64,000 nucleotides of DNA from an uncultured Candidatus Saccharibacteria bacterium. Its GTDB lineage: Bacteria > Patescibacteriota > Minisyncoccia > Phycocordibacterales > UBA2100. This document shows, piece after piece, positions 1-58,306 of the stretch; positions within the stretch are counted from its first letter, which is position 1, and every line of letters begins with the position of its first letter. The notes beneath the pieces were generated by a model that was given only the letters and a program-made list of their open reading frames with translations, was not told the origin of the DNA and did no database searches. Location: contig CAYRHX010000005.1 of assembly GCA_964424265.1 (NCBI GenBank), positions 7,951-71,950 of the forward strand, given 5' to 3'. Both the position numbers and the translations under genes were made by a program.

Positions 1-909
1 GATATAAAGGCCGATGATTTCTTCACAGTAACCCGTCAAACACTCGTACCATTCCTAATTTTTATAACGGTTTTGATACTCATTATCTCATCACTGTCCA
101 TCACCCTCATTTATATAAAGAAGCGGCAAGAAGAACAATTGCAAACGGTAAATGAGGAAGTGTATAAACATTCTCTGGAACTTGTGCGCCTTAAGCAAGC
201 ATTGGAGGTCGCGAACGCACAGCAGGAGAATCTTTTGCATTTCATCAGTCACGAGATAAAGGGGTATCTGACGAAAAGCGAAGCGGGGTTCGCGGCAATT
301 GCAGAGGGTGACTATGGAGTAATTTCAGAACAGTTGAAAGGAATGGCTACTTCTGCGCTTCTCGACGTGCGCAAGGGCGTGCGGACTGTTATGCAAATTC
401 TCGACGCCTCTAACATGAAAAAAGGCACCATGGGCTACAAGAAAGAGCCGTTTGATATGAAAAAAATCGTGATCGAAGCAGTAAATCACCTCAAACCGGC
501 CGCTGAAGAAAAAAGCATCTCTATCGACCTTTCCATTGCAGAAGGAGAGTACGCTCTGGTGGGGGATGAAGAAAAAATTAAACAACATGTGCTGCGCAAT
601 CTTGTCGATAACGCCATAAAGTACACGCCAAGGGGCGCCATCGGCGTAGAACTCTCCCGCGAAGGGAAGACTGTTCGTTTTGCGGTCAAAGACAACGGTA
701 TCGGCATTACTCCTGAAGACATGGCGCGTCTTTTTACCGAGGGCGGCCACGGCAAGGATTCGATCAAGGTAAATGTGCATTCCACCGGCTACGGCCTGTT
801 CATAGCAAAACAGGTAGTTGTGGCCCACGGAGGTAAAATATGGGCCGAATCCGAGGGTGCAGGCAAGGGTTCGCGGTTTGTTGTAGAGCTTCCCTCCACG
901 CTTTCATAG
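1..909 (+). CDS. sensor histidine kinase (5' end runs off window; frame open to position 1)
   Basis: H-box HFISHEIKGYLT. HATPase_c N/G boxes LVDNAIKYT, DNGIGI, GYGLFIAKQVV. Confidence 0.8.
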   Translation, partial: DIKADDFFTVTRQTLVPFLIFITVLILIISSLSITLIYIKKRQEEQLQTVNEEVYKHSLELVRLKQALEVANAQQENLLHFISHEIKGYLTKSEAGFAAIAEGDYGVISEQLKGMATSALLDVRKGVRTVMQILDASNMKKGTMGYKKEPFDMKKIVIEAVNHLKPAAEEKSISIDLSIAEGEYALVGDEEKIKQHVLRNLVDNAIKYTPRGAIGVELSREGKTVRFAVKDNGIGITPEDMARLFTEGGHGKDSIKVNVHSTGYGLFIAKQVVVAHGGKIWAESEGAGKGSRFVVELPSTLS

Positions 910-1022
910 CTCCTCAAAAAATTTGACAGCTATCCACCTACGGGTATAGGCTGCTTGGAGAGGGTGATCTTGGACGCTGACGCCTCTGTCAGCCTAAGAA
1001 ACTGAGGCTGCGTGGCTTAGAT

Positions 1023-1748
1023 ATGAAACAGGCATACAATTTTACATGGCAGTCAGCACGCATGGTGCTCGCTGTTTCAATTCTTATTTTTTTCTGTACC
1101 GCAATATTTCTACTTTCTGCGCACTATGCATTTACCGAAGAATGGCAGGTGAGTGATGTTCCTGGGCTTCTGGTTACCGAAGTAGCGCCAGAGGTCCGTC
1201 CCAGCACCCCAAGCGCGAGTGAGAGGAGTGTGAGGCAACGCAGAGACAGAGATGCCTTTTTTGCCGAGCAGATTCAAGGTAAAAGAAATGTAACGATCAT
1301 TTCTGCTTCGGATTCAGATTTTTTGGCTAGCATGAGCGATCCGGCGTCTACCGACCTCATTTCTGACGTGACTTTCTATTTCCACGTTTCGAATCCCACG
1401 AACGACAAACTTTCTCTGCTAACAATACCTACGGGCATACGAGAAGGGACTTTGAATTACATTCGGATTGAGGGTGCTACAGGCTATAAGTGGCGCGATG
1501 GTCAGCTCGTCATAGCGTATGTGTCGCTTCCGCCAGGAGGATCAGCTACTGTAAGCGTCACAGGATTGCCACTTATCTCGGTAGAGCCTGTCACAATCGT
1601 GATTTCTCCTACCGTGCGAAGCGAGGACGGCGTGCTCTTGGCTAAAAATGTGTCTTCCCATCACATTATTGCGGGGAAACGACCTGATATCGTTGCAAAC
1701 TTCCACATGGGTACCGTGAAAGCAGCGAGCCTGCCCGTTTCTCAATAA
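1023..1748 (+). CDS. hypothetical membrane-anchored protein, directly upstream of and probably co-transcribed with the rhs gene
   Basis: N-terminal TM helix. The 7-nt gap to the RHS ORF suggests an operon. Confidence 0.5.
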   Translation: MKQAYNFTWQSARMVLAVSILIFFCTAIFLLSAHYAFTEEWQVSDVPGLLVTEVAPEVRPSTPSASERSVRQRRDRDAFFAEQIQGKRNVTIISASDSDFLASMSDPASTDLISDVTFYFHVSNPTNDKLSLLTIPTGIREGTLNYIRIEGATGYKWRDGQLVIAYVSLPPGGSATVSVTGLPLISVEPVTIVISPTVRSEDGVLLAKNVSSHHIIAGKRPDIVANFHMGTVKAASLPVSQ

Positions 1749-1754
1749 AAGTGT

Positions 1755-4700
1755 ATGTATTCTTCTTTGTTTAATAAACGTTCCGGACGGAGGATCGCGG
1801 CCACGCTCTTGCTCTCTCTCCTCATGCAATCGCTCGCCCCACTGTTGCCCCTCACCAGCGGATCATCGATCGCCTACGCCGACACTCCTTGCGGCGTTAC
1901 CACTTCCTCGGGCCCAGCAATTACAACCCAGTACGGGGGAGTAAAGCTCGATAAGGCGGCAACGTTCCTCGCAAACATGGACGATATCACAGGGGCATAC
2001 TTTGATCAGGGTAGAAATCAGATCGTATTCGTCGGCAAGACGAACACCACACTTCCAGAATTCGATAAGGACGATCTTGCGGTAGCGATCCGCGCAATCA
2101 TCTTCAACAATGCAATCCCAGCAGTAAGCATCGAATTTAAGGATTTGAATAATATTTCTGCATACCCAACGATGAACGTGCTGTATTATGGGGGAATCGA
2201 AGATACTAATTTCGGTAAGGTGCTTCTCGACGCTGATGTTCAGCTCAAAAGATACATGATGGGAGGTGAGAGTGGCAACCCCGTCCAAACCGCCGTTCTA
2301 GGCTACAGGTCGGTCCTTGCGCGCTGGATAGAAAATGGTCCAGACGTCGTTAGAACAACTGGCTCTGCCTCACGATGGTGGATTTCGCCCCTAACTGTCA
2401 CACTGAAGAGAGACACTACGAGCAACGCGTTCGTTTTTGACACAGTAGCAATGCAGGTGCAAAGTGCTCCCCTTATGGCTAACAATGATCCTGCGTGGGA
2501 TAAGGCTGCCCAAGACTTCGCGACACAGATGACGCAATCCTACGACGCGTACGCAGCGGAAATGCCATCTTTCGCGAAGGCGAAGCAACTAGGCAAGATA
2601 ACAAGCGTTATCAAATGGCTAAAGGATAATCAGATTGCCACTGATTTCCAATGGGCGAAAAATTATCAGCCCACATTTGTGCCGACATCAAGAGAGGTAC
2701 CCGTTATGACATCCGGCACAATGCGCTACACAAGCGGAAATTACTCTTGGGATTTCTGGATTGAGGGTGGGGTGGAATACTCTACTCCGAATAATTATAC
2801 GAGTGACACCACTGGGGCGTCGTTGCAAATGAAAGTCGCATCCAGTGCTGCAGCTCCGAGTTCTACCGACGGTGTTTCGTGGACATTCACATCGAATGGC
2901 CAGACATACAACTCTGTGGCGGTTTCAGCGGATCTGTTTCGCTCTGTTGGGGCGTACGCGTATTCAGAAACAGATGCCTCACTTCCGACGACCGCGCAGG
3001 TTCCGTTCAGTCTTACGCGTTCGTACTCCTCCTTTGCGACGGATATAAACAACGGGTTCGGCTTTGGGTGGACCTTCATGCCGGCGACGCTTACCGATGC
3101 TCTTCCGGGGATCGCAACATCTTGTACCGTTCCCGGCGGATACACGGGTTCGTACCCTTACCGACTGGCAGCTACGACACCCGCAGGACGCGAAACATTT
3201 ACTCTAAGCTGCGGTGTTGGATATATTCCCGACGACCCCTTGCTTTTTCATACCAAGATTGTTCCTGATACAGCCGGATATCTGAACGTCGTAATGAAAG
3301 ATCGGACATTCTACGCCTTCTCACGATTCCCGGTCAACAATAATTTTCCTCTCTACAGAATCGGAGATGCGAACGCGATAAGTAAGATCACCTTCTCCTA
3401 TAATGCGAATTACACTCGGGTTAACTCGATGACTGAGGCCTATTCTGGAAAATACATTACGCTTACCTACAATGCGCTCGATCAAGTTTCATCTGTTGTT
3501 ACGCCGAGCGGTACTCTTCAATATGGCTACGACGCAAATGGAGATCTCGTCTCTGCCACTGACGCCCGCGGCAATACAACTACCTATCAATACAATGCGG
3601 GCCATCTTCTCAAGTCGGTTACGGATCGCGCAGGCACGAGAATGATTGATAATACGTACGACTCGAGTGGCAGGGTTGTCCTCCAAACCGATGCACGTAA
3701 TGTCCCACGAACTATTACCTACAACAATACCGATCGCTCCGTATTATGGAGTGATCCCAATGGGCGCTCCGAACGTACTGCGTATGACTCGAAGGCCCGG
3801 CCACTGCAGGTGATAAACGCTCATGACGCAACTACCACGTTTGCGTACGATACGACGAGCAATGCGCCGACGAGCATCGCGGATGCACGCGGCAATGTGT
3901 CAAGCTTCGCGTTTGATGCGAAAGGTAACCCGTTGAGCTATACAACTCCAGACGGTGGAAGAACTCTCTTTACTTGGGATAGCTCCAACAACCTTCTGCA
4001 GGCAAGCGATCAGCGCTACATACCGATTACAGGCACGCCGAAAGTTGCGACCTACGCATATGATACAAAGGGCAATCGCACACAGGCGAACGTTGCAGGC
4101 ATATCGACCACCAACTTCACGTACACCACGCAAGGGAAGGTCGCAAGCATTACGGATCCACGTGGGAACATTACGCGATTCACGTACAATTCGAGTGGGC
4201 TTCCGCTAACAATCCAAGACCCGCTTGGCAGAATCACGACGTATACATACGATTCTGCCGGACGTGTTACTCAAATCACTGATCCTTTGGGCGTCGTCAC
4301 TAATATGACGCACGATGCGAATGGTAATCGCTTGTCGGTCAGCACTCCCGCAGGTGCGGCCACCTACACATACGATGCAAACGATCGCCTCCTCAGCACT
4401 ACAGACCCCGCCGGAGCGCTCGTACGGCGGACGTACAGTCCTTCTGGAAACCTTACTTCAGTGGTTGATCCCCTAGGAGCATCGACGGCATATGGTTACG
4501 ATTCGTATGGCAACGTTGTCCAAAGCGTCGATCCGCTCTCTCGCGTCACCACCTTCTCCTATGACTCGATGAACCGCGAAACGTTGTACCGAACGCCAGG
4601 TGGTAAATCGTGGACGACGAGCTACGACGCGGTAGGAAATCCAATCGCGCAAGCAACGCCAACAGGAACGCAAACTGCGGTTTTTGATTCGCTGAGCCGC

Positions 4701-7568
4701 ATCACATCTTCCGTAGCTGGTTCAGCTTCTCTCGCATATACGTACGACTCTGCAGGGCGGCTCACAAGAGTGACGGGGCCCGCTGGTGCGACAAACTATG
4801 CGTACGATATCAAAGACCGCCTGACTCAGACTACGGATACGTACGGAAATATCATTTCTTACCAATACGACCTCGCAGATAACCTCACGAGGATCACGTA
4901 CCCTGATGGTAAAACAGTTCAAAATCAATTTGACGCGGCAGGCCATCTCACGCAACAAAAAGATTGGACCGGAGGAGTTACGCTTTACACCTACACGGCG
5001 AACGGCGCATTGAGCACAAAAACACTTCCAAATGGAATCTCTGAAGCATACTCCTACGATTCCGCGGGCCGCATCGCAAGCATTGTGTATGGAAATCTCT
5101 CGCAGCCGACTCTGTTCCGTCAAATATTTAGTCGCGATGCGCGAGGTTTTGTATCACGTATTGTCGAAGATGGCTCTACGGTCACAGCACACGCCACAAA
5201 CTACCAATTCGATGCTGCGGGTAAACTCTTAAGCGCGATAGATACCGCGAGCGCTACTTCAACGTACGCCTACGACACAGTGGGTAACATTACCTCCAAT
5301 ACTGCGTCGCGTGTCGATTTCGTACCCACCATAGCCACAACGACAGTGACCGTGTTTAAAGACGCCGCCACGACAACGACGATCATAGCCACCGCAGCGA
5401 CGTCGACAACTGTGTATGCCACGACTACACGTACGTTGGTGCGATCTATTGCACCGACGGTTCCGTACCTTTCCCGATATTTGTTCAACGGCACACTCGC
5501 GTCAAGTGCGAAACGTGCGGATTCGCTTGCACCCTCTCAACTACTGACGGAGAGTACTCGGCTCGCGTCTGGCTCAGGGCGATTTGCGGATGCGAATGGC
5601 ACGTATGTTTTTGACGGCAGCAAGACACAGCTCTCTCTTGCCCTTGTTTATGCTCCCAGCGCTGGTAGCACAACGCTCTCGGCCTGGGTCAAAATGGCAC
5701 CTGGAACGTCAGGCACAATCCTCGGTGCTACCAATAGTTCACCCGCCGGATTTATGCGAATGTACGTCCAGCAGGGAATTTTGCACGGGGATCTAAACTG
5801 GACTTCAGGAAGTAATACGTATGCACTTGTTGCCAGCTCTAGCGCAATAAGAATCGACGACAACGCGTGGCACAAAGTCGATGTCGCGTTTGCCAATTTG
5901 TATCCACCAGCCAATGGCGATATCTTCTCAAATGCCATCTACCTGTATGTTGACGGTGCGCTCGTTTTGACAAAAAAGGGCAACACGGTCAACTACAATC
6001 TTCCTAGTTTTAACTACGGCTGGAAGGTTGGCGCGATGACAAACCCCAACAAGCGCGTAGATAAGTACTTCAAAGGTTCTATCGACGAAGTTGCGATCAC
6101 CAACACCGCGCTGACATCCCCTTCACAAATTCAGGGCCGCTTCGCAGCCGAAGCTACGACATCTCCGATATATATCTGGACTCCTGCCGCTACTACATCA
6201 ACGTCCTACGCGACAACAACTCTCGCCCTGACTCCGACCTCGACGAGTACGACTATTACCAGTATCGCGACGAGCACAGCTACAACTACAGTACCAGCAT
6301 CCACGGTCACCGCAACTGCCCAGAGCTACGCCACAACCACCACTACAGTGGCACCGGTAATTACGAACACGCAGACGTTCCTCGCGACAACTACTGCAAC
6401 TACGACGATCGTGACTCTCACAAGCGTGACCGCTGCAACGACCACAAACACATTTACTATCTCTACCAGCGTGTCCACGACAACTCTTGTTGCAACCCCT
6501 CGCTCGCTCTCAACCTCAAACGCATACTCTGCGGATGACGAATTGCTCCTGTCTGTAACGTCAGGAACTGCGCCGACGGCAACTGTTACTCACACATACG
6601 ATGCGGAGGGAAATTTGAAGTCGACCGCTGGTTCATCTTCCAGGGCGTACTCTTGGACATCTCTCGGACAGCTATCCTCGGTCGCCTCGACCGCTTTCAC
6701 CTACGATGCGTCCGGAAACCGAATCGGGAAGAGCGCGGCGACGACAACCCGATACGTCAACGACGTCCTTGCTCCGAATGCCTTAGTCCTCGTTGAAGCT
6801 AACGCCAGCAATGCTGCAAGCCGCATAAACGTCTGGGGAGGACACGGGCTTATTTCCACAGGGGGAACCGCCACGACAAGCAGGTACTATCCGATAACCG
6901 ATTCCCAAGGGTCTGTCCGATTTCTTTCAGATTCGTCCGGCTCAATCATTCGCGCTTATCAATATGATCCGTATGGCGTCTCCTCAACTTATGCCTCGAG
7001 TGCATCTACTAGCCCGTACCAGTACACCGGTGAAAACCTCGACTCAGAAACCGGCCTTGTCTATCTGAGAGCCCGCTACTACGATCCTGCGACGGGCCGC
7101 TTCATCTCCCGCGACCCCGTGCGCGGCGTCCTCGACAACCCACTAACTCAGAATCCGTATATCTACGCCGGCGACAATCCGATGATGTATAGTGATCCGA
7201 GTGGGGAGCAGGCATTTGCTCTGCCAGGAGCTGGTATTGGATCTTTCTTTGGCCCAGTCGGAACAGCCTGCGGATTCGTCATCGGTGGTATTGCGAGCCT
7301 CGTGATTGTAATATGGGCGGGAAACCAAATTGCTACTTTAAACCTCTCCCAGAGTGGAGCGGGACAAGGAACGCCAAAACCAAGTAATCCGCCATCGGGC
7401 ACAGTACCTATCGATCAAGCAGGATTTCCGCGAGGTACAGCAGATCAGATCAAAAAGATAATCGGGGCTCGTCCGAATGACTGGACAGGTATAGCGCCAA
7501 ATGGCGATATTATTACCGGAACACCAAATGGAGAGGTAATTAATCACGGTCCGATAGAGCCATTCTAA
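1755..7568 (+). CDS. RHS/YD-repeat polymorphic toxin with signal peptide, internal LamG (concanavalin-like) domain, Thr-rich linkers, RHS core end and variable C-terminal toxin tip
   Basis: Numerous YD repeats (YxYDxxGxL type, e.g. YQYNAGHLLKSVTDRAGTRMIDNTYDSSGRVV). LamG-like block around nt 5470-6150. RHS core terminus YQYTGENLDSETGLVYLRARYYDPATGRFISRDPV...NPYIYAGDNPMMYSDPSGE at nt ~7017-7205, followed by a ~120-aa unique tail. Confidence 0.85.
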   Translation: MYSSLFNKRSGRRIAATLLLSLLMQSLAPLLPLTSGSSIAYADTPCGVTTSSGPAITTQYGGVKLDKAATFLANMDDITGAYFDQGRNQIVFVGKTNTTLPEFDKDDLAVAIRAIIFNNAIPAVSIEFKDLNNISAYPTMNVLYYGGIEDTNFGKVLLDADVQLKRYMMGGESGNPVQTAVLGYRSVLARWIENGPDVVRTTGSASRWWISPLTVTLKRDTTSNAFVFDTVAMQVQSAPLMANNDPAWDKAAQDFATQMTQSYDAYAAEMPSFAKAKQLGKITSVIKWLKDNQIATDFQWAKNYQPTFVPTSREVPVMTSGTMRYTSGNYSWDFWIEGGVEYSTPNNYTSDTTGASLQMKVASSAAAPSSTDGVSWTFTSNGQTYNSVAVSADLFRSVGAYAYSETDASLPTTAQVPFSLTRSYSSFATDINNGFGFGWTFMPATLTDALPGIATSCTVPGGYTGSYPYRLAATTPAGRETFTLSCGVGYIPDDPLLFHTKIVPDTAGYLNVVMKDRTFYAFSRFPVNNNFPLYRIGDANAISKITFSYNANYTRVNSMTEAYSGKYITLTYNALDQVSSVVTPSGTLQYGYDANGDLVSATDARGNTTTYQYNAGHLLKSVTDRAGTRMIDNTYDSSGRVVLQTDARNVPRTITYNNTDRSVLWSDPNGRSERTAYDSKARPLQVINAHDATTTFAYDTTSNAPTSIADARGNVSSFAFDAKGNPLSYTTPDGGRTLFTWDSSNNLLQASDQRYIPITGTPKVATYAYDTKGNRTQANVAGISTTNFTYTTQGKVASITDPRGNITRFTYNSSGLPLTIQDPLGRITTYTYDSAGRVTQITDPLGVVTNMTHDANGNRLSVSTPAGAATYTYDANDRLLSTTDPAGALVRRTYSPSGNLTSVVDPLGASTAYGYDSYGNVVQSVDPLSRVTTFSYDSMNRETLYRTPGGKSWTTSYDAVGNPIAQATPTGTQTAVFDSLSRITSSVAGSASLAYTYDSAGRLTRVTGPAGATNYAYDIKDRLTQTTDTYGNIISYQYDLADNLTRITYPDGKTVQNQFDAAGHLTQQKDWTGGVTLYTYTANGALSTKTLPNGISEAYSYDSAGRIASIVYGNLSQPTLFRQIFSRDARGFVSRIVEDGSTVTAHATNYQFDAAGKLLSAIDTASATSTYAYDTVGNITSNTASRVDFVPTIATTTVTVFKDAATTTTIIATAATSTTVYATTTRTLVRSIAPTVPYLSRYLFNGTLASSAKRADSLAPSQLLTESTRLASGSGRFADANGTYVFDGSKTQLSLALVYAPSAGSTTLSAWVKMAPGTSGTILGATNSSPAGFMRMYVQQGILHGDLNWTSGSNTYALVASSSAIRIDDNAWHKVDVAFANLYPPANGDIFSNAIYLYVDGALVLTKKGNTVNYNLPSFNYGWKVGAMTNPNKRVDKYFKGSIDEVAITNTALTSPSQIQGRFAAEATTSPIYIWTPAATTSTSYATTTLALTPTSTSTTITSIATSTATTTVPASTVTATAQSYATTTTTVAPVITNTQTFLATTTATTTIVTLTSVTAATTTNTFTISTSVSTTTLVATPRSLSTSNAYSADDELLLSVTSGTAPTATVTHTYDAEGNLKSTAGSSSRAYSWTSLGQLSSVASTAFTYDASGNRIGKSAATTTRYVNDVLAPNALVLVEANASNAASRINVWGGHGLISTGGTATTSRYYPITDSQGSVRFLSDSSGSIIRAYQYDPYGVSSTYASSASTSPYQYTGENLDSETGLVYLRARYYDPATGRFISRDPVRGVLDNPLTQNPYIYAGDNPMMYSDPSGEQAFALPGAGIGSFFGPVGTACGFVIGGIASLVIVIWAGNQIATLNLSQSGAGQGTPKPSNPPSGTVPIDQAGFPRGTADQIKKIIGARPNDWTGIAPNGDIITGTPNGEVINHGPIEPF
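7008..7203. repeat. direct repeat copy 1 (RHS core 3' end); ~85% identical to 8205..8399, last ~65 nt near-identical
   Basis: The nucleotide string ctaactcagaatccgtatatctacgccggcgacaatccgatgatgtatag occurs in both copies. Confidence 0.75.
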
Positions 7569-7571
7569 AAT

Positions 7572-8015
7572 ATGCATCCATACGAATTCAACATCTCATT
7601 CAGGTTAACTCATCCTACAGAAGATTTGACACAGATTTACCAGAAGTTAAGTCTCGTGTCTGACTTTTTACCCCGACGAATTTGGAAAGCTGGAGATGAG
7701 CGCAAATCTCAACAAGGCAAGCGACTGGGGGGATACTATGAAAAGTCCTATTGCTATTTTGATCTTAATACCGGCTTGCAGAAAAGCACTTCACAATCAC
7801 TGACATCCGTCATAGAGAACATACTGACAAGGCTCACTCCTTTTAAGGATGTACTTGAAAAATTCTGTGGAAACGCTGGCCAGCTTGAATTCTTTATAGG
7901 TTTGTATGTTGTCGAAAACGCCGGGGAAACTCTACCTGTGACTTTACTCAAAAAACTCTCAGATTTTCAAATCGGTTTAGCGCTCGATATATATCCCCCT
8001 GGAAAGAACGAATAA
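7572..8015 (+). CDS. putative immunity protein for RHS C-terminal toxin 1
   Basis: Small AT-rich ORF immediately 3' of the toxin tip, in the canonical rhs toxin-immunity arrangement. No recognisable domain. Confidence 0.4.
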   Translation: MHPYEFNISFRLTHPTEDLTQIYQKLSLVSDFLPRRIWKAGDERKSQQGKRLGGYYEKSYCYFDLNTGLQKSTSQSLTSVIENILTRLTPFKDVLEKFCGNAGQLEFFIGLYVVENAGETLPVTLLKKLSDFQIGLALDIYPPGKNE

Positions 8016-8056
8016 ACGAGGGGGCGGAGATAGGTACAATTAAACCATGAAAGACC

Positions 8057-8815
8057 TTGGATAACATGAAGCGCCGTGCGGTTCTCACACTCCTTATAGC
8101 ATCAATCGCATTCTCGCCACTCACTGCGCTAGCCACAGGCGTAGCTGTGACACCCTTTGGCTGTGGCTATCTGGCCGCAATGGCTGCGCCATCGAGCACC
8201 TCAACCACTCCGTACCTCTACACCGGTGAAAATCTCGACTCTGAAACAGGTCTCGAATACCTCCGCGCTCGCTATTACGATCCGACAACTGGTCGCTTTA
8301 TCTCCCGCGACCCTGTCCGCGGCACCCTCGACAACCCACTAACTCAGAATCCGTATATCTACGCCGGCGACAATCCGATGATGTATAGCGATCCGAGCGG
8401 GAAGGTCTTCTTCGCCCCGCTTCTGATAATTGGCGGATTAGCACTTGCCACATTCCTGACAAATCCCATAATCGAATCGCCCTGTGCTGTAATGAATCCT
8501 ACTCCCGAAGATTTCGCTAAGGCTCAGGCATTGGAAACAGGATTCTTTGTCGCGGGATTTGTAGCACCTGGAGGTGCGCTGTCGAAAGGATTCAACCTTG
8601 TAATAAAACATCCACACGCGATACAACACTTGGTTGAGGGTATTACTTCAGAAATGTTAGATGCAGCTATCAGACGTGACGTCGCCGAAAAAGGAGCGAC
8701 ACTATTGGGTCAGACATTGCAGCGGGAAGTTAAAGTTGCGGGCGAGACTTTCATCTACCGTATACACACATGGGCAGAAGGACAAGTTAACGTGGGTACC
8801 TACTTCCTAAAGTAA
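8057..8815 (+). CDS. orphan RHS core-end + alternative C-terminal toxin cassette with its own start and signal-peptide-like N-terminus
   Basis: YLYTGENLDSETGLEYLRARYYDPTTGRFISRDPVRGTLDNPLTQNPYIYAGDNPMMYSDPSG, followed by a different ~140-aa tail. N-terminus MKRRAVLTLLIASIAFSPLTALA. Confidence 0.65.
   Translation: MDNMKRRAVLTLLIASIAFSPLTALATGVAVTPFGCGYLAAMAAPSSTSTTPYLYTGENLDSETGLEYLRARYYDPTTGRFISRDPVRGTLDNPLTQNPYIYAGDNPMMYSDPSGKVFFAPLLIIGGLALATFLTNPIIESPCAVMNPTPEDFAKAQALETGFFVAGFVAPGGALSKGFNLVIKHPHAIQHLVEGITSEMLDAAIRRDVAEKGATLLGQTLQREVKVAGETFIYRIHTWAEGQVNVGTYFLK
8205..8399. repeat. direct repeat copy 2 (orphan cassette), homologous to 7008..7203
   Basis: Nucleotide-level identity with the RHS core 3' end. 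Confidence 0.75.
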
Positions 8816-8820
8816 GCATT

Positions 8821-9183
8821 ATGAATCAGGATTTATACCGACCGCTAAAGATCGAGGAAAAAAGGATTCTGAATAGACTACTCAGTGCAAACTTTCCAGG
8901 TCGTGATAAAATACTCCAGCAAATCTCCAACTGCGAGGTCAAAGAATGGTCGGATGGATCACGTAGCCTTGAATTCCGCACAAGCTCAGAAGCAGCAGCT
9001 AACGTAATTGACAGGATACCTGTTGAAGGTAGATTCGGTCCAAACGGTGTTATTCAGATATTGCTCCATGTGCTAGAAAAGAAAATAAAATATCTGGAAT
9101 TTGTTACATTTCACCTAGATAACATAAAAAAGTTACCTAGTCCGGATGAGGTTTCCGTAATAGTAAAAGAGAAATTACAATGA
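8821..9183 (+). CDS. putative immunity protein for orphan toxin cassette
   Basis: Small AT-rich ORF 6 nt after the orphan cassette. Confidence 0.4.
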   Translation: MNQDLYRPLKIEEKRILNRLLSANFPGRDKILQQISNCEVKEWSDGSRSLEFRTSSEAAANVIDRIPVEGRFGPNGVIQILLHVLEKKIKYLEFVTFHLDNIKKLPSPDEVSVIVKEKLQ

Positions 9184-9778
9184 AATCGTTTTTTGGAACT
9201 CTGGGCTTGTTACTAAAGAAATTCGACGAGGAACATCTCCTAGCGGCGATACCTATTTTCTCTCGAATTGTCGCTGAGTTGGTAGAGGATATAAGTGGAA
9301 TAAGGTGTCAGGGAAATAAGGTATCCGGAACCTTTTTCACACTACAGAACGTTCTATAATCTAGTAACAGGTTCGGTCATTAAGTAATGCTATGAGCAAA
9401 GAAATGGAATTGGATTTCTCAGATGTTAAAACCCCTCAGGATGTGGAGTACGAGTTTCTATTCCTAATCAGAAACTTCCTGTAGAAGACAACCTCCGTTT
9501 GATTTTTGATAAGTGGTTTTCCCCGATCCAGTCATCAGATAATACGCTTATACCTAAACTTGCGTTAGCCATCACAGGCAAGCTGGGGAAAAAAATCTCG
9601 GATGAAGTGCCGTCATCTTATTCTGAGGGACGAGGAAGGAGCACTCCCTGCTTTCTGATCCGTTCACTGATCTCTCACGTTGGGGGTAATGGTGTCAGGT
9701 ACCATTAAGATCTGATACGGGGGAGTAGACAATCTTGGGGGAAATTGTGTTGACTAAGTATATACATCTGTATATACT

Positions 9779-10036
9779 TTGCATATGAAAATAACTGCTA
9801 TCCAAAAATGGGGGAACAGCTATGCGGTGCGTATCCCAAAGACCACCGTGCGCAAACTTAATTTGAAGGCGGGTCATACCGTAGAAATTCGAGAGATGGA
9901 TCACGGCCGAGCATTTTCTATTACTCCGGTGCCGACTGATACAGACTCATTCGATGAGTTGGTTGAGAGAATTACGAAAGAAAATACTCACGGACCAACA
10001 GATTGGGGCAAAGCGATGGGGAAAGAAGTATGGTAG
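9779..10036 (+). CDS. mazE: MazE/PemI-type antitoxin (AbrB/SpoVT fold)
   Basis: KWGNSYAVRIPK motif. Overlaps the downstream toxin start (ATGGTAG). Confidence 0.75.
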   Translation: MHMKITAIQKWGNSYAVRIPKTTVRKLNLKAGHTVEIREMDHGRAFSITPVPTDTDSFDELVERITKENTHGPTDWGKAMGKEVW

Positions 10037-10374
10037 CGAAGGGTCGGTATATTCCTCGTCGCGGGCACGTGGTGTGGGTCGATTTTGATCCTGTTCGCGG
10101 ACACGAGCAAAGGGGGAAACGCCCGGCAATGATTGTCTCGTCTGAAAAATATAACGCGAAATCGGGCCTTGCTCTCGCATGCCCTATCACATCCCGCGCA
10201 AAGGGATATCCATTTGAAGTATCACTTACTACCAAGGCGATGACAGGCGTAATACTGGTGGATCAAATTCGTTCGATTGACTGGTCACAACGGCGAGCGA
10301 AAAAGATGGGATCTGCCTCCGAAAAAACAATCGCGGATGTTCAAAATCTCCTGAAAAAACTGATTACCGACTGA
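10030..10374 (+). CDS. mazF: MazF/PemK mRNA interferase toxin
   Basis: Alignable along its full length to E. coli MazF: RYIPRRGHVVWVDFDPVRGHEQRGKRPAMIVS...GYPFEV...ILVDQIRSIDW. Confidence 0.8.
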   Translation: MVAKGRYIPRRGHVVWVDFDPVRGHEQRGKRPAMIVSSEKYNAKSGLALACPITSRAKGYPFEVSLTTKAMTGVILVDQIRSIDWSQRRAKKMGSASEKTIADVQNLLKKLITD

Positions 10375-10493
10375 TCGCGCGCAGAGATACATCCCCAATT
10401 TGTCTGCATAAAATTTGAGCATCGTCAGCCTGATTATGATGAGCATTGAGCGGCGCCTGGCTGCTATGTATTTAGGCCGTTTTCTTTGGTATT

Positions 10494-11438
10494 ATGCAGG
10501 TCATGCAACGACTTTTTACGGGTCTTCAGCCTTCGGGATCACTCCACATCGGCAACTACTTCGGCGCACTCAAGCAGACTGTTGAGTTACTCAAGGATGC
10601 CGATGGTCTCGTGATGATCGCGGATTATCATGCACTTACCACGCTCAAGGATGTACCGGGACTCCGAAAAAATATTGGCGATGTGGTGCGCGATTATGTG
10701 GCTGTCGGCGTTGACCCACAAAAGGCAATAATTTTCCAACAATCCTCAAATCCGGCGCATACAGAGCTTGCGTGGATTTTTGATTGCCTCGTCACTGTCC
10801 CGTTCCTCATGCAAGCACATGCCTACAAAGATAAAGTAGCGAAAGGGTTGGAGGCCAACGCGGGGCTCTTCACCTACCCAATGCTCATGGCGGCCGACAT
10901 TTTGCTCTACGACACCGATATTGTGCCTGTGGGGGCAGATCAGCGGCAGCACGTCGAGTACGCGAGGGAAGCGGCTACCAAGTTTAACAACGCATTCGGC
11001 GAGACGTTTAAGCAGCCGCAGGAAAAGATTCTTGATACTGTCGCCGTGGTCCCCGGTACTGACGGTAAAAAAATGAGCAAGAGCTATGGCAACACTATTC
11101 CACTCTTCGGGACAAGAGAGGAGATACAGAAAGCGGTGATGAGCATTGTCACCGATTCGAATGCCGAGAGCCCTGAGAATGTGTACAACATCCATTCTCT
11201 TTTCAAGAGTAGGCAGGAACTGTCTATTTTGTATTCGGAAAACAAAGGTAAATACAAAGCTCTTAAAGACGCGCTGGTAGAAGATGTCGAGGCTTTGATC
11301 GGTCCCATGCGCGCACGACGAGAGAGCCTCTCCGATGCTGATGTGAAAGAGATACTGAGAGATGGGGGAGAGCGAGCTCGCGCTCAGGCAGATAAAAAAA
11401 TGATCGACGTACGCAAGGCGGTAGGTGTAACATTGTAG
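10494..11438 (+). CDS. trpS: tryptophanyl-tRNA synthetase
   Basis: GLQPSGSLHIGNY (HIGH region) and KMSKS. Size ~314 aa. Confidence 0.9.
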   Translation: MQVMQRLFTGLQPSGSLHIGNYFGALKQTVELLKDADGLVMIADYHALTTLKDVPGLRKNIGDVVRDYVAVGVDPQKAIIFQQSSNPAHTELAWIFDCLVTVPFLMQAHAYKDKVAKGLEANAGLFTYPMLMAADILLYDTDIVPVGADQRQHVEYAREAATKFNNAFGETFKQPQEKILDTVAVVPGTDGKKMSKSYGNTIPLFGTREEIQKAVMSIVTDSNAESPENVYNIHSLFKSRQELSILYSENKGKYKALKDALVEDVEALIGPMRARRESLSDADVKEILRDGGERARAQADKKMIDVRKAVGVTL

Positions 11439-27928: not shown

Positions 27929-30900
27929 TTAATCCTGAACGACGAAGTTGACCAATCTCCCGGGCACGACAATCGTCCGCAAGACATTTTTCCCATCCAG
28001 TCGCGCTTTTACTATCTTGCGCGCGGCATCTTCAAGAACAGTCCTATCGGCTCCAATATCCACCTCCACGGTACCGCGTGTTTTACCGTTGATTTGTACG
28101 GCAATGGTAAGGATTTCACTCTTGAGAAGAGTCTCGTCGTACCGCGGCCACTTTTCGAGGTGGATAGATTTTTTGTGATCCACCCTCCAGAGTTCTTCTG
28201 CCATGTGCGGCGCAAATGGCGCAATAAGCCGCAAGAAGATCCCCCACTGCAACCTCCCTATCTTCCCCTCTTTCTCGATGGCATTGAGGAAAATCATTAA
28301 TTGGCTGATGCCGGTATTAAATTTGAGCGCGCCTATGTCTTCGCCAACTTTTTTTATCGTTTTATGCAGTAAGCCGTTGAGCCCAGGAATGTCGTTCTTC
28401 TCGACTGCTGATCGCATTCGCCATACTCGCTCAATGAACCGTCGAACGCCGACGACGCCATCTGGATTCCAGGGATAATTCGAAACCTCATTGTAAGGGC
28501 CGATAAAGGCAAGGTACATGCGCACGGTGTCGGATCCGAGCAATGCGACGACTTCATCTGGATCTATCACATTACCGCGCGATTTGCTCATCTTCTGACC
28601 ATCAGGACCCATAATGAGGGAGCGGTTCATGCGTCGGGTATACGGCTCTTTATCTTTGACAAGGCCTAGGTCATACATCGCCTTCTGCCAAAAGCGACTG
28701 TACAAAACGTGCATTGTCGTATGTTCTGCTCCTCCAGAGTACAAATCGATCGGCATCCATTTTGCGAGCTTCTTAGGATCCGCAAATTGCTTTTTATTAT
28801 TCGGATCCGTATAGCGTTGAAAATACCAAGAAGAATCGACGAAAGTATCAAATGTGTCAGTCTCCCGCTCGGCGCCCCCCTTACACTGCGGACACCTCAC
28901 CTTGACCCACTTCGTCACCTTAGCAAGTGGTGACTTGCCACTCCCTTCGGGCAAATAATCTTTCACCTCGGGGAGTTTGACCGGTAGCTTACGATCCTCG
29001 ACGGCAACGGGCCCGCATGTGGGACAGTGGATGATCGGGATCGGCACACCCCAATATCGCTGACGAGAAACGATCCAATCGCGGAGCTTGTATGTTGTCT
29101 TTTTGCGACCGAATTTTTCTACGATTTTGAGCGCCGCCGCTTCACTCGCTAACCCTGAGAACTCTCCTGAATCGACGAGAATACCCTCCTTGGCATAACA
29201 CGCGTTGCCGATGACTCGACACCACGCAATTCGCATGTCCTCTCGGTTGATGAAATTATCCATCTCATCCTTGGATAGCCATGAGACTTCGTGCTCCGCT
29301 TTTTCCTCAGGTGATATCTCATTTTGCAAACCGTTCTCGAGCTTGAAAAGGAGAGGTGTGTAATACACGGATGTATTTCTTTTCCGCACGTCGCTGAAGT
29401 ATTTGCTGTGGATGGCGCCACCGAGTTGTCTGACAAAAACCGCATTTGAATAACCCGTTTCCTCGGCAATCTCTCGCTTGGCTGCAGACACGGGATCCTC
29501 TCCGTCGTGGATACCACCCGAGACGAACCCCCGTACATCAGTGGGTTTGTAGAGGACGGCCTGATATTTCTCCTCCGACCAATGTTTGACAACGGCGAGG
29601 ATGGACCGTCGAGCAAAGAACTCCTCGTCCGCATGAACCGCATCAAGCCCTCTCGTCTGCACCACAAGAGGTTCGATTACCTCGTTAATCGGCAGGTTGA
29701 ACTTCGTCGCAAACGCGTGATCGCGCTCATCATGGGCAGGCACCGCCATAATCGCACCCGTCCCGTAGTGTCCGAGCACATAATCAGCGACCCACACGGG
29801 GATCTTCTTCCCACTTGCAGGATTGATTGCTTTCACACCATTTAACTCAACACCGGACTTTTCTTTCTGATCGGCTTGCCGCTCGAGATCTGTTTTCCGC
29901 TTCGCTTTTTCAACATACTCCTTGATCTCATCTTTATTTTTCAATATGTTGTGCTTTCCGTCTACCGCACGAATGACCCATGGGTGCTCCGGAGCAAGAA
30001 CGAGGTACGTCGCGCCAAAGAGTGTATCAGCGCGAGTCGTAAATACTCGAACCGTCGGTCGCAGCCACATAAGAACATCGGGCTCGGTGTCACCCGTGAA
30101 ATGGGGTTTATTCGATGTGCTAGTTATGCTTTGTGTACCGAGAAGCTTCGCAAGTGCCTCTGTCTGAGCATCGGAAATAGCGTGATCGCGCGGGTCGTGG
30201 AGAACGGTCACTGAGCGAACGTTTTTTCGGATCGCTTCCCCGTCAAATTTCCATGTCCATTTTTTTTCAAAACTCCTCTTTTTATCTTTAAAATTTGTAT
30301 CGACGAAGCCACCCACAGTCACGAGGCGCGCAAGCGGCTTTGTGAGTCGCTCCGCGACTTTGAGGGCAAGCACTGCCCCAAGGCTGTGTCCCACAAGAAC
30401 AGTTCGTTCGTCGTATTTTGTCGTGCGAAGAGCAAACTCCACTTGCTCTGCTTCTGATGGATTGCCCGAATTGGGTAGCCGAGGCACGAGTACTTCATGA
30501 CCCATGGCTTCGAGTTCTTTTTTTACCCATTGCCACCGAGGTAGATCGGGAGAGCCTTCAAAACCATGGAAAATTACAAATTTGTACTTCTCGCCAGTTT
30601 CAATCAGGAAATCTATCTCCGCGCCCTCCGAGCGGCCGATCCAATTTCGCTGTGACTCCTTGATTTGCTCGGGCCAGTTTAGATCTTTGAGATCATCGAT
30701 CAAACGATCCGCGTAATCGGTGATTTTGATATTCCACTGGAGCATCTTCTTTTGCACCACATCGCTATCACAACGCTCACACTTCCCCGCAACGACCTGC
30801 TCATTAGCAAGCACTGTCTTATCTTTCGGACACCAATTTACGGCTGTGTTTTTGCGATACGCCAATCCTGCTTTGAAAAATTGCAAAAAAAGCCACTGAG

Positions 30901-31306: not shown

Positions 31307-31382
31307 AGAAAGAGCCTACCATATACTCGCACAACCAAAAACCTCTTCTATCTCGAGTCCGAAGAGAAGACACACCTGTCTA

Positions 31383-31533
31383 GAGCATGTTTGAAAACGC
31401 TTAACTGGAGTGAGAGACGGTATTCCCGAGGAATCCCCGCAGCACGAGGAGTGCGAGGATGGAGGATTTTCCAGCAGGAAAATCCGGTTTCCGAGGGAAT
31501 ACCGTCTCGAAGCGAAGGTTTCCAAATATGCTC
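31383..31533. repeat. 151-bp TIR element copy A (MITE-like / structured RNA), TA-flanked in a CTAG context
   Basis: gagcatgtttgaaaacgc...ggtttccaaatatgctc with internal inverted repeats. Three copies in the window. Confidence 0.75.
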
Positions 31534-35508: not shown

Positions 35509-35601
35509 GCCGGAGCGATCGAAGAGACCTTCTAAGCGCCGCAAATTTTCGAAAGGAGTTTGCGGCGTGACTATTTTATATTCCCTCGCCAAAGGAGTTT
35601 A

Positions 35602-35752
35602 GAGAATGCTTGAAAAAGCTTAACCGGTGCGAGAGGCGGTGTTCGCGAGTAATCCCCGCAGCACGAGGAGTGCGAGGATTGAGGATTTTCCAGCAGGAAA
35701 ATCCGGGTTCCGAGGGGATACCGTCTCGAAGCGAAGGTTTGGAAACATGCTC
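35602..35752. repeat. 151-bp TIR element copy B (left end degenerate)
   Basis: gagaatgcttgaaaaagc...ggtttggaaacatgctc. Confidence 0.7.
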
Positions 35753-58134: not shown

Positions 58135-58155
58135 CCGGCACAGTATACAACTCTA

Positions 58156-58306
58156 GAGCATGTTTGAAAACGCTTAACCGGTCTGAGAGATGGTATTTCC
58201 GAGGAATCCCCGCAGTACGATGAGTGCGAGGATTGAGGATTTTTCAGCTGGAAAATCCGGTTTCCGAGGGAATACCGTCTCGAAGCAGAGGTTTCTAAAC
58301 ATGCTC
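58156..58306. repeat. 151-bp TIR element copy C
   Basis: gagcatgtttgaaaacgc...ggtttctaaacatgctc flanked by c-ta...ta-g. Confidence 0.75.

What the first reader, a model, noticed from the sequence alone, without database searches (positions are those of the whole stretch)
7008..8399. A ~195-bp direct repeat links the RHS core 3' end to the orphan cassette, a substrate for toxin-tip switching
Nt 7008-7203 and 8205-8399 are ~85% identical overall, with the final ~65 nt (ctaactcagaatccgtatatctacgccggcgacaatccgatgatgtatag…) essentially identical. Homologous recombination between them would delete the resident tip and its immunity gene and fuse the orphan tip onto the full-length RHS.
Basis: seen in the sequence. 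Interest (0 to 1): 0.55.

Follow-up and report, generated by a model that had tools for sequence, protein, structure and literature searches.

The report
RHS toxin gene and spare-tip repeat
The repeat is real: it is the shared end-piece of a large RHS toxin gene and of a small downstream toxin gene in an uncultured Patescibacteria genome. It carries sequence marks of past recombination, as in the well-known Rhs "orphan tip" systems. Unlike those orphans, the downstream gene has its own export signal.

Summary
**Observation: confirmed.** Window 6996-7208 and 8192-8404 are a 213-nt direct repeat at 84% identity, in codon register in both ORFs. It contains a 63-nt exact tract (7130-7192 = 8326-8388).

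**What the two copies are.**
- Copy A is the RHS-associated core end (…YLRARYYDP…DPSG) of a 1937-aa Sec-type RHS protein.
- Copy B is the same domain in a 249-aa downstream ORF.
- Each ORF is followed by a small putative immunity gene.
- The host is a Kaiserbacteria-like Patescibacterium.

**Evidence on recombination.**
- The 5' 135 nt are saturated at synonymous sites, so protein-level selection alone explains their similarity.
- The 3' 75 nt are nearly identical (2/23 synonymous changes). The identical run is unlikely by chance (permutation P≈3e-5).
- Related loci show mosaic exact tracts of 47-188 nt between main and orphan copies. Pairs from different loci have a median longest run of 9 nt.
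- So recombination between core ends is well supported over evolutionary time.
- No recombinant configuration was seen here.

**Twist.** The "orphan" is not a start-less fragment. It begins with a conserved signal peptide plus a Cys, which looks like an RHS N-terminus (clearly so in one related lineage, weakly here). It therefore looks like a shell-deleted mini-RHS gene.

**Verdict.** This is a known mechanism (Rhs C-terminal displacement and orphan switching) in a new clade, with one variant feature.

The parts
1023..1748 (+). Upstream partner gene (241 aa, N-terminal hydrophobic segment, no Pfam/NCBIfam hit).
   Evidence: ORF; no family hit. Homologues sit directly upstream of the RHS gene in L010 (40% identity) and L011 (50%). 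A 194-aa hydrophobic-N-terminus gene with no Pfam hit occupies the same position in L092; its homology to acc241 was not tested.
1755..7568 (+). Full-length RHS/YD-repeat toxin gene (1937 aa). It has a signal-peptide-like N-terminus ending ...AYADTPC (Cys46 at 1890-1892), DUF6531, 14 RHS-repeat matches, a LamG-like insert, the RHS-associated core, and a 120-aa C-terminal tip.
   Evidence: Pfam RHS_repeat E = 1.6e-89, DUF6531, Laminin_G_2. TIGR01643 and TIGR03696 at aa 1737-1817. Translation. Only 4 Cys: 46, 457, 486, 1839.
6996..7208 (+). Repeat copy A: the last 70 codons of the RHS core (…PYQYTGENLDSETGLVYLRARYYDPATGRFISRDPVRG…NPMMYSDPSG) plus one codon.
7130..7192 (+). 63-nt tract exactly identical to 8326-8388. 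It is the best substrate for homologous exchange, or the footprint of one.
   Evidence: Permutation P = 3e-5 over all sites and 4e-5 over third positions.
7194..7205 (+). DPSG codons. This is the Rhs core/tip boundary (the second DPxG of the DPxG-x18-DPxG autoproteolysis motif).
   Evidence: Motif definition from PMC12704120 and PMC8765631.
7206..7568 (+). Resident C-terminal tip (120 aa): a Gly-rich hydrophobic stretch with Cys1839 (7269-7271), then a small domain of unknown family.
   Evidence: No Pfam, NCBIfam or PDB hit. Only 3 homologues in 5.8 billion proteins; one of them (P0121) follows a degenerate …NPVTYTDPSG core end.
7572..8015 (+). Putative immunity gene for the resident tip (147 aa, DUF4279). 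It starts 3 nt after the RHS stop codon.
   Evidence: Pfam DUF4279, E = 2.3e-7. The role is inferred from its position.
8066..8815 (+). Downstream 'orphan', or mini-RHS ORF (249 aa). It consists of signal-peptide-like leader MKRRAVLTLLIASIAFSPLTALA, Cys33 (8162-8164), a 70-aa core end, DPSG, and a 137-aa tip with Cys140 (8483-8485).
   Evidence: Translation. TIGR03696 model positions 10-75 match aa 43-112, E = 8e-21. The leader is conserved in relatives. Leader pN/pS is about 0.42 between L010 and L011 leaders; the pN/pS values for the window's own leader (0.88-0.95) came from a comparison misaligned by a one-codon indel and are not usable. The leader resembles RHS N-termini of its own lineage.
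8192..8404 (+). Repeat copy B, including the exact tract 8326-8388 and the DPSG codons 8390-8401.
8402..8815 (+). Alternative ('orphan') tip: a hydrophobic helix, an ESPC motif, and an alpha+beta C-terminal domain of unknown family.
   Evidence: It is 77% identical to the first orphan tip of locus L010. AlphaFold is confident only for aa 190-249. There is no significant Foldseek or PDB sequence hit.
8821..9183 (+). Putative immunity gene for the orphan tip (120 aa).
   Evidence: It is 70% identical to the gene that follows the homologous tip in L010. The DUF6984 match is weak, E = 0.0065, below the curated cut-off.
9785..10374 (+). MazE/PemK toxin-antitoxin pair at the distal edge of the island, just before trpS/tyrS-type tRNA synthetase (10494-11438).
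   Evidence: Gene calls and Pfam hits on the identical contig L001; coordinates were transferred with the 1180-nt offset.

Best explanation
**What it is.** The repeat is the 3' end of the RHS-associated core domain, present twice in a polymorphic-toxin island of a Kaiserbacteria-like Patescibacterium. One copy is in the full-length, Sec-type RHS gene. The other is in a downstream toxin/immunity cassette.

**Why the two copies are alike.**
1. Both reading frames encode the same conserved autoproteolysis/plug motif. This explains the 76% identity of the 5' 135 nt, where synonymous sites are saturated.
2. The last ~75 nt have been homogenised by homologous exchange between the copies, either gene conversion or a past crossover. 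This left a 63-nt exact tract.

**How it is expected to work.** This is the known Rhs 'C-terminal displacement / orphan switching' scheme.
- A RecA-type crossover between the direct repeats deletes 1196 bp and fuses the alternative tip in frame to the shell-forming RHS protein.
- The reverse reaction, a single crossover with a circular cassette, inserts a new tip and pushes the old one downstream.

**Shown versus inferred.**
- Shown: the anatomy, the in-frame register, the heterogeneity of synonymous divergence, and concerted, mosaic evolution of core ends within related arrays.
- Inferred: that exchange still happens in this population, that the tips are toxins, and that the small downstream genes are their immunities.

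**Difference from classical orphans.** The downstream ORF is a complete gene. Its leader looks like an RHS N-terminus (signal peptide plus Cys), joined directly to the core end. It may therefore also be made and exported on its own.
For: **Anatomy.**
- RHS repeats, TIGR03696 core ends in both ORFs, and small genes after each tip.

**Register.**
- Both copies are in frame at offset 1196.

**Heterogeneous divergence.**
- 19/39 synonymous codon changes at 6996-7130, against 2/23 at 7131-7205 (Fisher p = 0.0018).
- The genome-to-genome background is 0.53-0.65.
- The longest identical run is 63 nt, P = 3e-5.

**Concerted, mosaic evolution in relatives.**
- L010: main-o1 179 nt exact, main-o3 110, o1-o3 188, and o2-o3 62 nt across the DPSG boundary.
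- L011: main-o1 188 nt, main-o2 89 nt.
- W compared with L010 or L011 cassettes gives runs of only 8-32 nt.
- Over 75 core ends, runs of 32-188 nt occur within many loci. Pairs from different loci have a median of 9 nt and a 95th percentile of 23 nt.
- Copies cluster by genome at synonymous sites.

**Tips move between main and orphan positions.**
- The main tip and immunity of L011 are paralogous to its second orphan tip and immunity.
- The W orphan tip and imm2 recur as the first orphan in L010 at 77% and 70% identity.

**Island status.**
- The histidine kinase gene and trpS/tyrS-type gene are adjacent in close relatives, and none of 80 related genomes has an RHS core end there.

**Precedent.**
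- Salmonella main/orphan recombination (PMC3967940).
- The circular-intermediate displacement model (PMC2935791).
Against: - No recombinant or circular junction was seen. Every contig that spans the region has the parental order, and the short Logan contigs merely break inside the exact tract, as any repeat longer than k would cause.
- The homology is short and diverged: 63 nt exact within 213 nt at 84%. The experimentally recombining Salmonella pair has 522 bp at 95%.
- The same 75-nt block is also unusually conserved between genomes. W vs L011 shows 6-7 of 21-22 synonymous changes, below the 0.53-0.65 background. Some of the identity could therefore reflect codon-level or nucleotide-level constraint, or cassette exchange between lineages, rather than conversion within the locus.
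- Simple deletion would remove imm1 and should be costly among siblings that still make the resident toxin (inference, as argued in PMC3967940).
- RecA was not looked for in this genome.
Confidence: 0.7

Rival explanations
1. The downstream ORF is an independently expressed, Sec-exported 'mini-RHS' toxin. On this view the repeat exists mainly because two functional genes both need the core-end (autoprotease) domain. Recombination between them is incidental, not the purpose of the arrangement.
For: - The ORF has an ATG and a signal-peptide-like leader followed by a Cys.
- The same leader architecture is found in 11 leader-bearing orphans from several Patescibacteria loci.
- Leader DNA is homologous with many synonymous differences. 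pN/pS is about 0.42 between L010 and L011 leaders, at saturated pS.
- In the L092/L105/L127 lineage the leader is clearly homologous to RHS N-termini (z = 8-15). In the W, L010 and L011 lineages the match is weak (z = 3.2-4.8) but is usually highest to the locus's own main gene.
- Every leader-bearing orphan keeps one N-terminal Cys, and all with a complete tip also keep a Cys 18-33 aa after DPxG, as the full-length proteins do. Of the 18 family representatives whose core end could be located, all have both Cys.
- A crossover in the repeat would discard the leader, so its conservation points to selection on the small protein itself.
- The genome lacks Shine-Dalgarno sequences in general, so their absence here is not evidence against translation.
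Against: - AlphaFold gives low confidence for the leader and core-end part (pLDDT 35-66). That is consistent with a fragment that cannot fold without the shell.
- The length of core retained after the leader varies from 44 to 136 aa among relatives. The W copy is among the shortest (about 70 aa), which is less than the full ~105-aa terminal unit.
- No promoter-like site was found before 8066.
- This reading does not explain the exact tracts and mosaics.
- The two readings are not mutually exclusive.
Confidence: 0.4
2. There is no recombination at all. On this view the whole repeat, including the 63-nt tract, is explained by purifying selection on a very conserved peptide plus codon preference.
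For: - The 5' two thirds of the repeat are fully explained this way (19/39 synonymous changes).
- The 3' block encodes the most conserved residues. It also shows reduced synonymous change between genomes (W vs L011 6/21-7/22).
Against: - An identical run of 63 nt, or 23 consecutive third positions, has P≈3-4e-5 under permutation.
- Within W there are 2/23 changes, against 7-10 of 17-20 for W vs L010 in the same block.
- Related arrays have exact tracts of 47-188 nt at different positions in different pairs, against a saturated background. Selection on the peptide cannot produce that.
Confidence: 0.1
3. The identical tract is a functional nucleotide element kept in front of every tip. An example would be an internal promoter or translation signal that drives tip and immunity expression, like the P2 promoters inside Salmonella rhs.
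For: - Internal promoters lie in the conserved region upstream of both main and orphan tips in Salmonella, and are conserved before about 50 different toxins (PMC7043789).
- The block is partly conserved between W and L011.
Against: - The promoter scan finds no sigma-70-like site in either copy of the tract. The total number of sites equals the shuffle expectation.
- L010 cassettes use many different codons in the same block.
- No Rfam match was found in the region.
Confidence: 0.07
4. The repeat, or the order of the cassettes, is an assembly artefact of a metagenome.
For: The source is a short-read metagenome assembly. Logan contigs break inside the tract.
Against: - The exact tract (63 nt) is shorter than k = 141.
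- The same 12-19 kb arrangement was assembled at 99.97-100% identity from at least two independent ENA samples.
- The flanks of the two copies differ clearly.
Confidence: 0.02

Closest known systems
Enterobacterial Rhs main/orphan loci (Salmonella Typhimurium STM0291/STM0292; the C-terminal displacement model of Jackson et al. 2009; Koskiniemi et al. 2014)
   Same: - A full-length YD-repeat gene ends in a conserved core and DPxG boundary, followed by a variable tip and a small immunity gene.
- It is followed by a 5'-truncated core fragment with a different tip and immunity gene.
- The shared core end is a direct repeat, and crossover in it fuses the orphan tip to the main gene.
- Arrays of displaced tips occur in relatives.
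   Different: - The homology is far shorter and more diverged: 213 nt at 84% with 63 nt exact, against 522 bp at 95%.
- Export appears to be Sec-type; the Pfam scan reported no PAAR or VgrG domain on the RHS protein, and neighbouring genes were not searched for T6SS components.
- The boundary motif is DPSG followed by E or K, not DPxGL.
- The downstream copy has its own ATG, a signal-peptide leader and a conserved Cys.
- The host is a Patescibacterium with a reduced genome.
- Recombination is inferred from sequence here, not demonstrated.
WapA-type Sec-dependent Rhs toxins of Gram-positive bacteria (B. subtilis WapA; S. suis WapA with orphan CT2)
   Same: - An N-terminal signal peptide precedes the RHS repeats, the core, a polymorphic tip and an immunity gene.
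- Orphan modules lie downstream.
- A WapI-family immunity gene follows one leader-bearing orphan in the related locus L092.
   Different: - No cell-wall-binding domain was detected here.
- The family has its own N-terminal domain (…GGVxLDxAATFLA…) and a conserved partner gene upstream.
- The S. suis orphan is reported to lack a signal peptide (PMC12704120), whereas these orphans carry one.
CdiA-CT/CdiI orphan arrays (Poole et al. 2011)
   Same: They are tandem toxin/immunity cassettes downstream of a large delivery gene. Each is preceded by a short stretch homologous to the end of the delivery gene's conserved region, which is thought to allow tip exchange by homologous recombination (listing, PMC3150448).
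   Different: The delivery protein is different (two-partner secretion, VENN boundary motif). No RHS shell or autoprotease is involved.

Membership tests
Rhs/YD-repeat polymorphic toxin (full-length 'main' gene) | Multiple RHS/YD repeats forming the shell region. | tested here: met
   PF05593 in 14 stretches, E = 1.6e-89; TIGR01643 in 9 stretches.
Rhs/YD-repeat polymorphic toxin (full-length 'main' gene) | An RHS repeat-associated core domain ending in the (P)xxxxDPxG(L) boundary, with the DPxG-x18-DPxG aspartyl autoprotease motif. | tested here: met
   TIGR03696 at aa 1737-1817, E = 4e-21. The sequence is …RDPVRGVLDNPLTQNPYIYAGDNPMMYSDPSG|E. The residue after G is E or K, not L. Cleavage itself was not tested.
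Rhs/YD-repeat polymorphic toxin (full-length 'main' gene) | A variable C-terminal toxin domain neutralised by the product of the next gene. | not testable with these tools
   The tips are unrelated after DPSG and each is followed by a small gene. Related cassettes carry Colicin_E5, Tox-REase-7 (PF15649; the name is from memory, the tool gave only the accession) and WapI domains. The two W tips match no known family. Toxicity and immunity need experiments.
Rhs orphan (dissociated tip) module | A 5'-truncated core fragment homologous to the main gene's core end, with a different tip and its own immunity gene, downstream of the main gene. | tested here: met
   The same cassette sits in orphan position in L010.
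Rhs orphan (dissociated tip) module | It lacks its own translation start and export or delivery region, so it is silent unless fused to the main gene. | tested here: not met
   There is an ATG at 8066, a signal-peptide-like leader and a Cys, all conserved in relatives. Purifying selection on the leader (pN/pS about 0.42) was measured between the L010 and L011 leaders only. Expression itself was not tested.
Rhs orphan (dissociated tip) module | Recombination between main and orphan core ends produces a chimeric main gene. | tested here: inconclusive
   The sequence signatures are present. No recombinant contig was found.
T6SS-associated Rhs effector | An N-terminal PAAR, VgrG-interaction or prePAAR region, and linkage to T6SS genes. 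| tested here: not met
   The Pfam scan of the RHS protein reported only RHS_repeat, TEN_YD-shell, DUF6531 and Laminin_G_2, so no PAAR or VgrG domain. The neighbouring genes that were annotated are housekeeping genes and a histidine kinase.
WapA-type Sec-dependent Rhs | An N-terminal Sec signal peptide. | tested here: inconclusive
   A hydrophobicity and charge heuristic is positive for the main and orphan N-termini. No dedicated predictor was available.
WapA-type Sec-dependent Rhs | Cell-wall binding repeats after the signal peptide. | tested here: not met
   The Pfam scan of the RHS protein reported none.

The most novel reading that the evidence does not exclude
In this Patescibacteria RHS family the 'orphans' may not be silent spares. 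They may be shell-deleted mini-RHS genes, with this layout: RHS signal peptide + Cys | core-end autoprotease | tip with a matching Cys. On this reading they would be made and exported by Sec in their own right. A disulfide between the N-terminal Cys and the Cys just after the cleavage site would tether the cleaved toxin in both the full-length and the mini proteins.

The direct repeat then has a second consequence. The 1196-bp circle excised by a crossover would read, once closed, as an intact mini-gene (leader, core end, resident tip) followed by imm1. That would be a self-contained, expressible cassette able to re-insert by a single crossover into another RHS core end.
Probability: 0.3. Interest if true: 0.65.

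Novelty: new variant of a known kind. Interest (0 to 1): 0.42.

Why it matters
- **For the question asked.** The repeat is a genuine example of the Rhs main/orphan homology that is known to allow toxin-tip exchange. Only its last ~63-75 nt carry a recombination signal.
- **Host.** The locus is a ~9.5-kb toxin island in a reduced Patescibacteria genome. The full-text searches tried here found very few papers that mention Patescibacteria or the Candidate Phyla Radiation together with Rhs or polymorphic toxins.
- **Variant features.** The leader-bearing, shell-less orphans and the Cys pair that is invariant or nearly so are features I did not find described. If the mini-genes are expressed, the usual picture of orphan arrays as silent reservoirs would not hold for this clade. 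The Cys pair would also give a testable structural idea about how the cleaved tip is held.

Tried and rejected
- **Exact search for the 62-mer in 185,579 species genomes:** no hit. The source is only in metagenome assemblies.
- **Looking for the recombinant configuration:** I looked up contigs that encode imm1 or imm2. All informative contigs are parental, and the short ones break in the tract. Chimeric proteins cannot be looked up with the exact-match tool.
- **Promoter and terminator scan of 900-10600:** counts equal the shuffle expectation, and there is nothing before 8066 or inside the tract.
- **Identity of the two tips:** none found by Pfam or NCBIfam, PDB sequence search, or AlphaFold plus Foldseek. 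The model has mean pLDDT 62 and the best Foldseek E-value is 0.08, which is not significant.
- **Homologues of the resident tip:** only three short proteins, so its occurrence in main versus orphan positions elsewhere could not be assessed.
- **Syntenic comparison through the trpS/tyrS-type gene in 80 related genomes:** none has an RHS there. This was useful for defining the island but not for seeing alternative tips.
- **DNA-level homology between the orphan leader and the main gene's 5' end:** none. The similarity is seen only at protein level.
- **Co-variation test for the Cys pair:** both Cys are present in nearly every family member, so only one informative co-absence was found (the L117 main gene). 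This is too little for statistics.
- **Rfam on the whole window:** only one tRNA.
- **Rejected: assembly artefact** (k = 141 exceeds 63 nt; several independent samples).
- **Rejected: T6SS-type Rhs** (the Pfam scan of the RHS protein reported no PAAR or VgrG domain).

Full report
**1. The observation**

The repeat is there.
- The repeat finder reports 6996-7208 and 8192-8404: 213 nt, 84% identical, 1196 nt apart.
- BLASTN reports 192 nt at 85.9%.
- The longest exact run is 63 nt, 7130-7192 = 8326-8388.
- A protein-level search finds no third core-end copy in the 64 kb.
- Both copies are in the reading frame of an ORF and in the same codon register.
- Similarity starts abruptly at 6996/8192 and stops one codon after a DPSG motif (7194-7205 / 8390-8401).

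**2. What the genes are**

- ORF 1755-7568 encodes a 1937-aa protein.
  - It has a signal-peptide-like N-terminus, DUF6531, 14 RHS-repeat matches (E = 1.6e-89) and a LamG-like insert.
  - It has an RHS repeat-associated core domain (TIGR03696, aa 1737-1817) ending …NPMMYSDPSG, followed by 120 residues of unknown family.
- Three nucleotides later comes a 147-aa DUF4279 gene (7572-8015).
- ORF 8066-8815 (249 aa) matches TIGR03696 model positions 10-75 at aa 43-112. It then continues into a different 137-aa C-terminal region.
- A 120-aa gene follows at 8821-9183.

This is the layout of an Rhs 'main' gene with a downstream tip/immunity cassette. Toxin and immunity functions are inferred, because neither tip matches a known family. 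Cassettes in related arrays do carry Colicin_E5, PF15649 and WapI domains.

**3. Source and context**

- Identical contigs come from ENA metagenome assemblies and Logan runs, always in the same order.
- The neighbouring trpS/tyrS-type tRNA synthetase is 84-86% identical to those of Ca. Kaiserbacteria, Nomurabacteria and Parcubacteria MAGs. The host is therefore a Patescibacterium.
- In the closest genomes the histidine kinase gene and the trpS/tyrS-type gene are adjacent, and none of 80 relatives has an RHS core end there.
- The segment from the 241-aa partner gene through RHS, both cassettes and a MazE/PemK pair is therefore an inserted island.
- MAG GCA_039741235.1 (L011) has the island at the same site, with a 1975-aa RHS and two orphans. 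GCA_040960315.1 (L010) has a 2283-aa RHS and four orphans. A more distant locus (L092-L094) has a 1750-aa RHS and three orphans.

**4. Selection or recombination?**

- In 6996-7130, 19 of 39 codons that keep the same residue differ synonymously. Nucleotide identity is 76%.
- That is the saturation level seen between W and L011 in housekeeping genes (0.53-0.65). This part of the repeat needs only protein-level selection.
- In 7131-7205, only 2 of 23 such codons differ. Nucleotide identity is 97% (Fisher p = 0.0018).
- Shuffling the 35 differences over the 213 sites gives a run of 63 or more with P = 3e-5. For third positions alone P = 4e-5.

Related arrays make the case stronger. Against a saturated background they contain exact tracts at different places in different pairs.
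- L010: main-o1 179 nt, main-o3 110, o1-o3 188, and o2-o3 62 nt across the DPSG boundary.
- L011: main-o1 188 nt, main-o2 89 nt.
- W compared with L010 or L011 cassettes shares runs of only 8-32 nt.
- Across 75 core ends collected from metagenomes, runs of 32-188 nt occur within many loci. Pairs from different loci have a median of 9 nt and a 95th percentile of 23 nt.
- Copies group by genome at synonymous sites. That is concerted evolution.

Tips also change position. The main tip and immunity of L011 are paralogous to its second orphan pair. The W orphan tip and imm2 recur as the first orphan of L010 at 77% and 70% identity.

One caveat remains. The 75-nt block is also somewhat conserved between W and L011 (6-7 of 21-22 changes). 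Part of the identity may therefore come from constraint, or from cassettes moving between lineages.

**5. Mechanism**

- A crossover in the repeat is in frame. It would delete 1196 bp (resident tip, imm1, head of the downstream ORF) and yield a 1954-aa chimera.
- This reaction was shown experimentally for Salmonella STM0291/STM0292. There the homology is 522 bp at 95%, and a prior duplication preserves immunity (PMC3967940).
- The reverse reaction, insertion of a circular cassette by one crossover, is the 'C-terminal displacement' model (PMC2935791).
- The substrate here is much weaker, and no recombinant was seen. I therefore rate evolutionary exchange as well supported, and switching within the present population as unproven.

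**6. The downstream ORF is not a classical orphan**

- It starts with ATG and MKRRAVLTLLIASIAFSPLTALA, followed by Cys33.
- The ten closest short RHS-core proteins in the database share such a leader, while 110 others, apparently from other lineages (their taxonomy was not determined), do not.
- Eleven leader-bearing orphans were found in the loci fetched here.
- Leader DNA is homologous with many synonymous differences. pN/pS is about 0.42 between L010 and L011 leaders at saturated pS. The comparisons involving the window's own leader were misaligned by a one-codon indel and are not usable.
- In the L092/L105/L127 lineage the leader is plainly an RHS N-terminus. The L105 main protein reads …LLFTSFIPAFQTPFSPQTVEAAENSC and its orphans read …LLFFTSFLPFFQTPLTPQKAYAEENC|IYYVYDG (z = 13-15 against shuffles).
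- In W, L010 and L011 the match is weak (z = 3.2-4.8) but is usually highest to the locus's own main gene.
- These ORFs therefore look like RHS genes that have lost everything between the N-terminal Cys and the core end.
- The S. suis WapA orphan, by contrast, is reported to lack a signal peptide (PMC12704120).
- The genome has no Shine-Dalgarno sequences in general, so their absence before 8066 says nothing.

**7. A Cys pair**

- The full-length proteins have very few Cys. In W these are C46 just after the signal peptide, C457 and C486, and C1839, which lies 22 residues after DPSG.
- All 30 family representatives (50% identity clusters) that have the N-terminal domain at the N-terminus carry the N-terminal Cys.
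- All 18 representatives whose core end could be located also have at least one Cys after DPxG, although the tips are unrelated. It usually lies 7-33 residues after the motif.
- Every leader-bearing orphan keeps one Cys after its leader, and all with a complete tip also keep one 18-33 residues after DPxG. The one truncated copy (L127) has no tip to examine.
- The two leaderless orphans whose Cys were examined have only the tip Cys.
- One main gene (L117) lacks both.
- A disulfide between the N-terminus and the start of the cleaved tip is a reasonable hypothesis, but it is untested.

**8. Verdict**

The repeat is the known kind of homology that lets Rhs tips be exchanged, and it bears a recombination footprint. 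Only its last ~63-75 nt do so, no recombinant was seen, and the 'orphan' is a complete, probably exportable gene.
- It is a new variant of a known kind, of moderate interest.

Noticed in passing
window 1890-1892 and 7269-7271 (main); 8162-8164 and 8483-8485 (orphan); also L010, L011, L092, L105, L127 and P0124-P0153: There is a conserved Cys pair: one Cys just after the signal peptide, and one 7-33 aa after the DPxG cleavage motif. It is present in the full-length RHS proteins of this family (about 4 Cys in 1500-2300 aa) and in every leader-bearing mini-RHS with a complete tip. One main gene (L117) lacks both. It is a candidate disulfide tether for the cleaved tip.
   Followed up: partly
window 8066-8164; L105 9895 and 11522; L092 10001: The orphan leader resembles the N-terminus of a full-length RHS (signal peptide through the Cys) and is fused directly to the core end. 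The homology is clear in the L092/L105/L127 lineage and weak in the W, L010 and L011 lineages. The orphans therefore look like shell-deleted RHS genes.
   Followed up: partly
window 31379-31537, 35598-35756, 58152-58310 (element reads on the - strand): Three copies (89-91% identical) of a 159-nt intergenic element bounded by inverted ends TCTAGAGCATGTTT…AAACATGCTCTAGA. It folds into one long hairpin (-79.9 kcal/mol, z = -10.6). It looks like a MITE or REP-type element and has no Rfam match.
   Followed up: partly
window 27929-31306 (- strand): The leucyl-tRNA synthetase is 1125 aa long. Besides the usual synthetase, editing and anticodon domains, it carries an alpha/beta-hydrolase domain (aa 243-426) and a NUDIX domain (aa 593-682). 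This is an unusual architecture.
   Followed up: no
window-wide gene starts (e.g. 39665, 47500, 59244, 17419, 58134): None of about 30 gene starts inspected has a Shine-Dalgarno sequence. Several have a TATAAT-like box 6-12 nt before the ATG, which suggests leaderless or very short-leader mRNAs.
   Followed up: no
window 1023-10374: The whole RHS locus, with its partner gene and a MazE/PemK pair, is an island of about 9.5 kb between a histidine kinase gene and the trpS/tyrS-type gene. Those two genes are adjacent in the closest Kaiserbacteria-like genomes (L013, L014, L017).
   Followed up: yes
window 1023-1748; L010 1879-2736; L011 2827-3603; L092 1808-2392: In L010 and L011 a homologous upstream partner gene (241-285 aa in W, L010 and L011; hydrophobic N-terminus, no known domain) directly precedes the RHS gene. 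In L092 a 194-aa gene of similar character occupies that position, but its homology was not tested. The function is unknown.
   Followed up: partly
window 7206-7320 and 8402-8460; same position in related cassettes: Most tips of this family examined begin, right after DPSG, with a hydrophobic or Gly-rich helix. Several unrelated tips share a following …ESPC..NPT.EDFA.A… linker. This may be a common membrane-entry or pre-toxin module.
   Followed up: no
L003-L005, L008, L009 vs window 7163, 8355-8381: Short Logan and ENA contigs of the same population start or end inside the 63-nt tract. This is expected at a repeat longer than k. It also means these data sets contain reads that could be used for a junction test.
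   Followed up: partly
window 39754-42954 (- strand): A 1066-aa protein has peptidoglycan-binding, LamG-like and PKD domains. It is a second large surface-type protein in the window.
   Followed up: no
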